This document shows positions 29,436-31,736 of a stretch of 64,000 bases of DNA, in pieces (the stretch's first letter is position 1; each line of letters starts with the position of its first letter). Both the position numbers and the translations under genes were made by a program. Origin of the DNA: Pelomyxa schiedti (lineage: Eukaryota; Protista; Evosea); the NCBI GenBank assembly GCA_020536535.1, contig JAHLWZ010000799.1, positions 1 through 64,000 on the forward strand, read 5' to 3'. The notes under the pieces were generated by a model that had not been told where the DNA came from, did not search any database, and saw only the letters and a list, made by a program, of their open reading frames with translations.

Positions 29436-31736
29436 TTACGGCTGGTGCAGGGAAGTGGTGTCGAAGTGGGCGAATCCCAACGCCTGCATGAGTCGTTCCA
29501 TGAACGCGTCGGTCTTGGCATACACACGCGTGGTTGCGAGCAAATCACACGGGGTGTGTTGCAGGTTGACAATCACAAGCTTCCCGCCGGATTTGAGTAC
29601 CTTGAGGGGGTATGAGGCCGCCGGTTGCACATTCATGCTTGTACCTTTTGGTGAGGGATGGTGAGTACAGGATTGGATTCTTTTGGTTAGTATTTATTGA
29701 TTGAATTTCATGTGTTTATAATAAAGCAGAGAATCGCAACCTAATACAACTGCAAGGTCCGCTTTTCTGGAATGGTACTCGGCGGTGATGGGGTCCAGCA
29801 TTGTTCGGTAGGTATCCCTGGTTAAATTCGTTAGCTCTTAAAAAAGAAAAAAACGGAAGAAGCCATACGAAAAATCAACTATTGTGTCTTGAAGTGGTGC
29901 CTTACAATAGTCACATTTGCTACCAGTGTAGTGGTAGGCTGAATAAAATTGACACACATCGTAGCTTGAATGACTTTTAGTTGGAGGGAAGACGCTCACG
30001 TGAGGACATACTCCCGATGAACTACTTTTTTACAAAATTCGCAGCACTCTTTGTATCCACTGCCATGCAGTTCGACGATCATGTGGCGAGGTAACCCACT
30101 TCTTGTGTGAAGTCCATCCATGTTGGTGGTTACCTAGTGCTAATAAGTAGGCCCAGATGAAATGGCTTAAAATACAAACCACGAATTTAAGCAGTCTTTT
30201 ACGCCCAAGGTGTGTTATGGCATAGTGAGCAAATGTTGGAAGAGCCCCTTCGAAGTCTTTGCCTCCTGAATCTAAACCTTTATCTCTAAGGGTCCACAAG
30301 CCCTAGCAACGGTACATAAATTGTGCTATAAGCTGCAGTGTGGGACGGTCATACTTGGGGACCTCGGAAGTCAGGTATGTTGGCACTTGTGCTAATTCCA
30401 GCACCTGTAAAGAAGACAACGTGCTTGGCAGTTTTTAATGCTTGGGCAACTTCGTTTGCCTTTTTTTTTTTTTTCATGTCACCATATTATATTATGGTTG
30501 GGGGAGAAGAAAAACCTTGAATAACAGGGATTCTAATGGCTCTTCATACTCTACACGTTCATCATCAAAGATCCTCTCCATTTCCAGACGGGTTAATCTA
30601 ACCTCAGTTCGTTGAAGAAAGTCGATATCCTTTAAATAGGATTAGGTCTTGATTATTGTGTGGCGAAAGAAACCGAGAGAATTGCATCGCCACAGGGCCG
30701 GGATTGGGGCATATTGAAATATTCGTCGTGCGGAAGTACAGGAGGGGTCATCATGAACAAATCTTTAAGAACCTTCTTTATTTCCATTTGCACCAAATCT
30801 AAATCAGGAAGGAGATAAAACAATAGCTGGGGAGTATCAAATGAAACCTTCTTTAGAGTTCATTCGCAAAGAGTGTGGGTACTGCAAAGGATTTAGAACT
30901 GAGATGAAGTCTTCTTGTATCTCTTGCCCATCGACTGTAGGGGTCGGTATTTGCCTCAAAATTCGATACTGTAAGACGCATTCCCGTGAGTCAATGTAAC
31001 CTTTGATAATACTTAGCAAACCTTAAGCTCGTAGCCTATGTCGTCCTTGATTTCGGCCAGACATAGTTTATTTTGTGAACAGCCCTCTCGCCAAATGACT
31101 ATAGCCTCTTCAACAAGTGCAGCATCCCCGATGTAAACAACACCACTTTGCCGCACATGAAAGCATTCCGCCTTGTTAAAATACAAGTTTTAGTGGTTTG
31201 ATTTGGCGCTATATGGAGATAACCTTTCGAACGTCGCAATCTTCAAAAACGAATATACACTTGGTACAATTGATCATCCGGCAGGTTCGAGAAACCACTA
31301 CGGCGCTATCTAGCACATAAATGCGGCATTTTACACAATCTTTCACCACTATCATCCCCAAACGCTGCAGAAGAAGCGGGATTAAATAAAATCAGGTGCC
31401 GGTCGAATAACGCAGAGCACACCTGATTCTGAACGATAGTGAAAGCACAATTTACGCAACCGTTGATGAAAACTATGTCATGTGACCGCAAGTGGTCAAG
31501 AGTCACACGTGAGCCATTCATTCCAGTGTACTGAACAACGTTTCTGCACGAGAAAAAAAATGCATATAAGCAGCGTAAGTAAACACGGGATGGGGACGCA
31601 GGGGCAACTTGGGAGCATCTGAGAACGGAGACACGGGAGTGAAGTTGAATCTCGCATTCTCTGTGTAGTAAAAAAGACCAGCCGGAACAGAGTCATGGGA
31701 GGCCGAGGCCGAGGACGTCCGTGTTGTACTGTGCAT
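29436..31736 (-). CDS. Class IV sirtuin (SIRT6/7-like) with N-terminal C-CAP/cofactor-C-like beta-helix
   Basis: [41 protein letters not shown]...CDYC Zn site; [20 protein letters not shown]-terminal repeats [13 protein letters not shown] / [12 protein letters not shown] / [11 protein letters not shown]. Confidence 0.9.

What the first reader, a model, noticed from the sequence alone, without database searches (positions are those of the whole stretch)
29436..31736. C-CAP/TBCC-like beta-helix fused to a SIRT6/7-class sirtuin
The spliced N-terminus ([75 protein letters not shown]) follows the CARP repeat pattern of the cyclase-associated protein C-domain (I..C.N..I, V..C.K..., IN.....). That fold binds ADP-actin in CAP and acts on tubulin or Arl3 in TBCC and RP2. 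No separate start is evident before the sirtuin core. I know no characterised sirtuin with this architecture. It may be an NAD+-dependent deacylase targeted to actin, tubulin or small GTPases (inference).
Basis: partly seen in the sequence, partly recalled or inferred. Interest (0 to 1): 0.7.

Follow-up and report, generated by a model that had tools for sequence, protein, structure and literature searches.

The report
Amoeba sirtuin fused to CAP beta-helix
One spliced amoeba gene encodes a SIRT6/7-type enzyme joined to a domain predicted to fold like the actin-binding part of cyclase-associated protein; sponges and corals have a similar fusion, and it likely removes acyl groups from proteins at membranes or the actin cortex, which is untested.

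Summary
The fusion is real. A 1,469-nt RNA contig joins 11 GT-AG introns from the N-domain exons to the stop, and the 13-exon model equals a 543-aa database protein named Pelomyxa schiedti. The N-domain is predicted as a C-CAP beta-helix (pLDDT 94; Z 15.9 to human CAP1; TBCC/RP2 about 10). The C-half is an intact class IV sirtuin. The architecture is a family: 97 of 99 long top sirtuin hits carry the domain; named members span Amoebozoa, with 8 paralogues in this species. It is not unprecedented: Gold and Sinclair 2022 report CAP-C + Sir2 'SIR8' in sponges and corals, function unknown, no amoebae among their listed taxa. Orthology is untested. CAP's actin residues (1 of 6 kept) and RP2's arginine finger (Glu) are mostly lost, so the beta-helix is more likely a targeting module than an exchange factor or GAP. 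In 14 of 39 family clusters the C-terminus has a transmembrane or CaaX tail, and a few carry CRIB or WH2-like motifs; this gene has none. Best reading: a membrane- or cortex-targeted lysine deacylase family.

The parts
29436..31736 (-). 13-exon gene for a 543-aa CAP-fold + class IV sirtuin protein. Exons: 31736-31609, 31543-31423, 31364-31224, 31171-31022, 30968-30848, 30798-30674, 30629-30516, 30459-30355, 30302-30180, 30133-30012, 29964-29869, 29817-29741, 29644-29436
   Evidence: RNA joints; open spliced frame; identical to P0001
31609..31736 (-). Exon 1 (residues 1-42): Ser/Thr-rich leader, then a stretch shared with the Pelomyxa sp. JSP orthologue
   Evidence: Not covered by RNA; supported by P0001 and P0002
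30781..31610 (-). Predicted C-CAP/CARP-fold right-handed beta-helix with terminal hairpin, residues about 42-227. Conserved loop and face residues: S63, N82-Q83-R84, D102-S103, S108-R109-T110, R112, D127, R129
   Evidence: AlphaFold2 pLDDT 94.3; VIA Z 15.9, rmsd 2.9, 141 of 157 CAP1 residues; Foldseek; conservation
30545..30798 (-). Helical linker, residues about 221-290, ending in the conserved E-R-x-E stretch that leads into the SIRT6/7-like N-terminal segment
   Evidence: Helices in the model; E286 35 of 36, E289 32 of 36
29472..30545 (-). Class IV sirtuin domain, residues 291-532: GAGIS (319, at 30405), [16 protein letters not shown], catalytic His399 (30067), zinc Cys 407/410/434/437, GTS, NLQ
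   Evidence: Pfam SIR2 3.8e-23; human SIRT6 E 4e-51, SIRT7 4e-47; motif conservation
30460..30515 (-). Intron 7, with an in-frame ATG (30477) and a 14-A run before the acceptor; a possible but unsupported sirtuin-only start
   Evidence: Spliced out in X1 and X2; 4-base deletion at 30461 in X4; translation

Best explanation
One spliced gene encodes an intact SIRT6/7-class sirtuin behind a domain predicted to be a C-CAP-fold beta-helix; the sirtuin likely acts as an NAD+-dependent lysine deacylase, and the beta-helix likely recruits it to a partner at membranes or the actin cortex rather than to chromatin. Shown: the single transcript, the catalytic motifs, and the family's spread in Amoebozoa. 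Predicted: the fold. Inferred: enzyme activity (about 0.9); a conserved basic Ser/Thr/Asn patch (R84, R109, R112, R129, S63, S103, T110) as the binding surface, on the edge and face that CAP uses for ADP-actin and RP2 for Arl3-GTP; a non-nuclear site of action (about 0.55 for the family, less sure for this anchorless paralogue); and long-chain acyl-lysines on small GTPases or cortical proteins as likely substrates, by analogy with SIRT6 acting on R-Ras2 (about 0.3).
For: Transcript. Fold; a family profile also finds Cryptosporidium CAP at E 0.0018. Catalytic His 27 of 27 and the four zinc Cys invariant in the family alignment. Domain kept in 97 of 99 long top sirtuin hits. C-terminal transmembrane tail in 12 and CaaX in 2 of 39 clusters at 70% identity, on separate branches of the tree. 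CRIB/PBD at the N-terminus of P0042 (above the Pfam cut-off) and P0039. WH2/thymosin-like motif at the N-terminus of 3 of 74 distinct extensions. SIRT6 removes fatty acyl groups from R-Ras2 (PMC5391209, abstract; PMC8339906, passages).
Against: This gene's own product has no transmembrane, CaaX, CRIB or WH2 motif, and 25 of 39 clusters have no transmembrane or CaaX tail. The WH2 pattern was written after seeing those sequences, and the Pfam Thymosin hit (E 0.017) is below cut-off. Only 1 of 6 CAP primary actin residues has a conserved counterpart. The residue mapping is my register from weak HMM alignments (E 0.3-1.3) and the fold-search start points, not a residue-level superposition. SIRT6 and SIRT7 are mainly nuclear, and so is the Acanthamoeba class IV AcSir2 (PMC7376869, passages). 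There are no activity or localisation data.
Confidence: 0.45

Rival explanations
1. The beta-helix works within the protein, or binds nucleic acid or another phosphate-bearing ligand, as an allosteric switch for an otherwise ordinary (possibly nuclear) class IV deacetylase.
For: The conserved surface is basic and differs from CAP's. The domain is almost always fused to this sirtuin clade. The linker is conserved and helical. This paralogue and most clusters lack a membrane anchor.
Against: Transmembrane and CaaX tails in 14 of 39 clusters, and CRIB or WH2-like motifs in a few members, do not fit chromatin work. P0001 has only one short basic cluster, RKR at 369, inside the catalytic domain.
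Confidence: 0.3
2. The N-domain kept CAP's job: it binds ADP-actin monomers, and the sirtuin deacetylates actin or actin regulators.
For: The whole CARP domain aligns, terminal hairpin included (CAP1 325-470). K365 maps to R84 (R or K in 49 of 52). WH2-like motifs precede the domain in three members, as WH2 does in CAP (PMC5951797, passages).
Against: K347, Y351, Y353, N367 and D372 equivalents are different or variable. CAP's exchange activity needs a free C-terminal tail, which here continues into the linker.
Confidence: 0.15
3. The N-domain is a TBCC/RP2-type GTPase-activating domain for tubulin or Arl2/Arl3.
For: Related fold, Z 8.4-10.7. An Arg (R112, 38 of 59) sits on the same face one coil away.
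Against: In register, RP2 Arg118 maps to E132 (Glu 32, Arg 6 of 56), and Q115/Q116 map to R129/K130 (residues from PMC4539340). CAP scores about 5 Z units higher.
Confidence: 0.05
4. Two adjacent genes, or a mis-assembly, read as one.
For: An in-frame ATG in intron 7; the RNA evidence is contigs from one sample.
Against: One RNA contig spans both halves in frame. Transcript-derived proteins from other species have the same fusion.
Confidence: 0.02

Closest known systems
SIR8 class IV sirtuins of sponges and cnidarians (Gold and Sinclair 2022, PMC9486876)
   Same: Class IV Sir2 domain with a CAP-C domain upstream (six proteins in their Table S1); function unknown.
   Different: Their SIR8 was dated to about the origin of animals, with no Amoebozoa among the taxa listed in their methods. 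Their CAP-C was called by Pfam, whereas no member scanned here reaches the CAP_C cut-off (best 22.7 vs 23.8 bits). No hit that I looked up bore an animal name. Orthology is untested.
Human SIRT6 / SIRT7
   Same: Best solved relatives of the catalytic domain; NAD-binding, catalytic His and zinc motifs all present.
   Different: They have no CAP-fold domain and are mainly nuclear. The single protein scores SIRT6 slightly higher and the family profile SIRT7, so neither is a clear orthologue.
Cyclase-associated protein C-terminal (CARP) domain
   Same: Predicted fold over 141 of 157 residues, rmsd 2.9, 12% identity.
   Different: N-terminal rather than C-terminal, no free tail, most primary actin-contact residues changed, and an insertion loop (DSAVVVSRT) that is the family's most conserved stretch.
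TBCC / RP2
   Same: Related beta-helix fold.
   Different: The arginine-finger position holds Glu by my register.
Acanthamoeba class IV sirtuins AcSir2 (YEATS) and sir6f (zf-UBP)
   Same: Amoebozoan class IV sirtuins with accessory domains.
   Different: Other accessory domains. None of the 13 SIR2 rows in the readable, truncated part of that annotation table lists a CAP domain.

Membership tests
Sirtuin (SIR2), class IV | SIR2 domain above the Pfam cut-off, with GAGIS, PDFRG, catalytic HG, two CxxC, GTS and NLQ motifs | tested here: met
   82.8 bits vs cut-off 24; motifs
Sirtuin (SIR2), class IV | Closest to SIRT6/SIRT7; GVWT-like motif | tested here: met
   SIRT6 4e-51, SIRT7 4e-47, next class 8e-29; GLWT at 336-339; motif named in PMC7376869. 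No tree with SIRT6/7 outgroups was built.
Sirtuin (SIR2), class IV | NAD+-dependent deacylase activity | not testable with these tools
   Inferred from motifs only
C-CAP/cofactor C-like fold | Right-handed beta-helix with about 19-20-residue coils | tested here: met
   Model pLDDT 94.3, pTM 0.91; Z 15.9; Foldseek E 1.6e-5
Pfam CAP_C (PF08603) | Score at or above the gathering cut-off 23.8 | tested here: not met
   16.2 bits for P0001; best relative 22.7
Cyclase-associated protein | Conserved primary ADP-actin interface (K347, Y351, Y353, K365, N367, D372) and a free C-terminal tail | tested here: not met
   1 of 6 conserved by manual register from an E 0.34 alignment; the domain is internal
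Cyclase-associated protein | CARP homodimer | tested here: inconclusive
   See Tried and rejected
TBCC/RP2 GAP | Arginine finger (RP2 R118) with Q115/Q116 | tested here: not met
   E132 and R129/K130 by manual coil register; not a residue-level superposition
SIR8 (Gold and Sinclair 2022) | Class IV Sir2 with a CAP-C domain upstream | tested here: met
SIR8 (Gold and Sinclair 2022) | Nine-residue SIR8-specific motif | not testable with these tools
   The motif is a picture in their Fig. S3; the letters are not in the text
SIR8 (Gold and Sinclair 2022) | Groups with SIR8 in a class IV tree | not tested

The most novel reading that the evidence does not exclude
CAP-fold sirtuins are an ancient third branch of class IV, older than the split of Amoebozoa from animals and surviving as SIR8 in sponges and corals. 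They form the first family of membrane-anchored sirtuins (tail-anchored, prenylated or amphipathic-tailed), using a repurposed CAP beta-helix, sometimes with CRIB or WH2, to strip fatty acyl groups from Rho/Ras GTPases or actin regulators at the cortex of phagocytic cells. This may undo acylation by bacterial effectors.
Probability: 0.2. Interest if true: 0.8.

Novelty: new variant of a known kind. Interest (0 to 1): 0.48.

Why it matters
If the amoebozoan family is orthologous to SIR8, a sirtuin thought to have arisen with animals is far older and was lost repeatedly. If it is not, the same fusion arose twice. Either way it gives culturable hosts (Physarum, protostelids, Mastigamoeba) in which the function of a CAP-C sirtuin can be tested. 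The repeated C-terminal anchors suggest a class IV sirtuin that works at membranes, unlike nuclear SIRT6/7. My literature searches found no paper describing that or the amoebozoan family; the library lacks most subscription journals.

Tried and rejected
Single-sequence AlphaFold2 of the full protein failed (pLDDT 32.5), so no full-length model or domain arrangement was obtained. Homodimer prediction of the N-domain gave 'no answer' (score 0.00, alignment not used), which is no evidence either way. Exon-wise Pfam gave only sub-threshold TBCC. The six-sequence N-domain profile found nothing significant in PDB sequences. The atlas feature hits for the N-domain were CAP_C/TBCC clusters at 0.79-0.83, leads only; for P0006 the top cluster (0.93; SIR2 100%, CAP_C 24%, 68 members) may be its own. 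No relative was found in prokaryote genomes or viral contigs by pattern scan (limited sensitivity). The metagenome scan gave one locus, L001, a lone N-domain exon near a contig end with no sirtuin match downstream. The idea that Acanthamoeba sir6f belongs to this family was rejected: it is annotated zf-UBP + SIR2, and a six-residue motif from its siRNA matched nothing. One search was circular (P0065 is in the alignment) and is disregarded. PMC11673790 and the chromatin-evolution preprint had no passage on this architecture. No earlier scan findings were returned. No whole genome is held for this window. The tree (61 selected rows, near-identical ENA rows thinned by hand, midpoint root, no outgroup) shows anchor types on separate branches but cannot order gains and losses.

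Full report
Observation. The region is a eukaryotic gene on the minus strand with short introns. RNA contigs laid on it show 11 joints in run X1 and 9 of them in run X2; runs X3 and X4 cover the region without joints. All 11 introns are GT..AG, the spliced frame is open, and the exonic length of 1,469 nt equals the length of the single X1 contig whose listed pieces run from the N-domain exons to beyond the stop. X1 and X2 are one sample, and the data are contigs. A search with one exon returned an identical 543-aa protein that the tool names Pelomyxa schiedti, KAH3757581.1; my 13-exon model reproduces it exactly. Exon 1 lacks RNA cover but aligns with a complete transcript from Pelomyxa sp. 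JSP. An in-frame ATG does lie in intron 7 before the sirtuin core, but that intron is spliced, and one run has a frame-shifting deletion behind the ATG.

The two domains. Residues 291-532 match human SIRT6 (E 4e-51) and SIRT7 (4e-47) far better than other classes; a family profile prefers SIRT7. The catalytic His and four zinc Cys are invariant in the family alignment. The N-domain hits Pfam CAP_C only below cut-off. With a 61-row alignment, AlphaFold2 gave a confident beta-helix (pLDDT 94.3). Foldseek's top five rows are CAP C-terminal domains, then RP2 and TBCC. VIA-align gives Z 15.9, rmsd 2.9 over 141 of 157 residues of human CAP1, against 8.4-10.7 for TBCC/RP2 and 8.5 or less for unrelated beta-helices.

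The family. A profile of six N-domains found 64 proteins among 1.84 billion representatives, two of them from the query alignment. Of 62 scanned, 20 showed SIR2, one more (P0029) has the sirtuin motifs, and most others are short or broken off; P0027 carries PSP1 instead. Conversely, among the best 120 of 574 hits to the sirtuin half, 97 of the 99 with at least 200 residues before GAGIS carry the N-domain; many of these are near-identical ENA sequences, and some were in the profile. Names returned: Pelomyxa schiedti (8 paralogues), Pelomyxa sp. JSP, Mastigella, Mastigamoeba, Physarum, Planoprotostelium, Protostelium, Balamuthia, Pyxidicula, Amoeba proteus and Apiculatamorpha. From recall, these cover all three main amoebozoan lineages plus one kinetoplastid, which may be contamination or transfer. 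I looked up 26 proteins by cluster; none bore an animal name, but several JGI, ENA and Logan rows have no organism.

Clues to function. Mapping mouse CAP1's primary actin contacts (PMC5951797, passages) through a weak alignment, only K365 has a conserved counterpart, R84. The free tail that CAP needs for nucleotide exchange is absent. RP2's arginine finger (PMC4539340, two of three parts read) maps to E132 by my coil register. The family instead conserves S63, N82-Q83-R84, D102-S103, S108-R109-T110, R112, D127 and R129, which recur at coil spacing and so likely form one basic, polar edge. At the other end, 12 of 39 clusters at 70% identity have a hydrophobic tail and 2 a CaaX box; 25 have neither, including this gene, though about four of those end in aromatic or amphipathic stretches by eye. 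The anchor types lie on different branches. Two members begin with a CRIB/PBD match and 3 of 74 N-extensions with a WH2/thymosin-like motif; 0 of 2,000 shuffles reached 3, but the pattern was written post hoc. SIRT6 defatty-acylates R-Ras2 (PMC5391209, abstract), and a review tabulates SIRT2/6 GTPase substrates and asks whether such hydrolases counter bacterial acylating effectors (PMC8339906, passages).

Mechanism. The most likely reading is an NAD+-dependent lysine deacylase whose CAP-fold domain has become a partner-binding module, acting at membranes or the cortex (0.45). Rivals are an internal or nucleic-acid-binding regulatory role (0.3), retained actin binding (0.15), a GAP role (0.05) and an artefact (0.02). 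For this paralogue the localisation argument is borrowed from relatives.

Relation to what is known. Gold and Sinclair (PMC9486876; passages, methods section and part 1 of 4 of the supplement read) described SIR8, a class IV family of sponges and cnidarians in which about half the sequences have CAP-C upstream of Sir2. Its function is unknown, they date it near the origin of animals, and their listed taxa include no Amoebozoa. So the architecture is known. Its presence across Amoebozoa, the paralogue expansion and the membrane anchors were not found in my searches. Whether this is SIR8 itself could not be tested: the defining motif is a picture, and no named SIR8 sequence was in hand. The studied Acanthamoeba class IV sirtuins have other accessory domains; the annotation table was truncated, so a member there is not excluded.

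Verdict. A real, conserved fusion, correctly spotted; a new variant of a described but uncharacterised kind. Interest 0.48, rising to about 0.8 if it proves to be an ancient, membrane-targeted deacylase branch that includes SIR8.

Noticed in passing
window 28045-29269 (- strand): The next gene downstream begins with a long Gly-Met-Met-Gly-Gln-Pro repeat tract, followed by spliced exons (RNA joints at 28357-28496) and a weak EF-hand match; it resembles a calcium-binding protein with a low-complexity N-terminus.
   Followed up: partly
window 31964-33239 (+ strand): A divergent ORF about 230 bp from this gene's ATG encodes a Ser/Gly/Ala-rich, then Ser-Cys-rich, low-complexity stretch; no Pfam hit and no RNA depth in the part laid.
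   Followed up: partly
window 27333-27842 (+ strand): Exon-like pieces resemble a calponin-homology domain by eye (recalled pattern); Pfam did not confirm this on single frames.
   Followed up: partly
P0029 (database protein, 1,780 aa): The Planoprotostelium member looks like a gene model fusing this sirtuin, tail included, to an LRR receptor kinase, and is named after the kinase.
   Followed up: no
P0091-P0185 (many ENA/JGI contigs of about 1.8 kb): A large group of Asn/Lys-rich members from an unnamed eukaryote lineage ends in lysines plus a CaaX box and forms one clade with P0026.
   Followed up: partly
P0011, P0027, P0099: Rearranged forms: P0027 has the beta-helix with PSP1 and no sirtuin, and its N-terminus resembles the C-terminal tail of P0011; P0099 has the family's sirtuin without the beta-helix.
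   Followed up: no
L001:185-484: A lone N-domain exon upstream of ankyrin-like ORFs on a eukaryotic metagenome contig, with no sirtuin match in the 2.4 kb behind it.
   Followed up: partly
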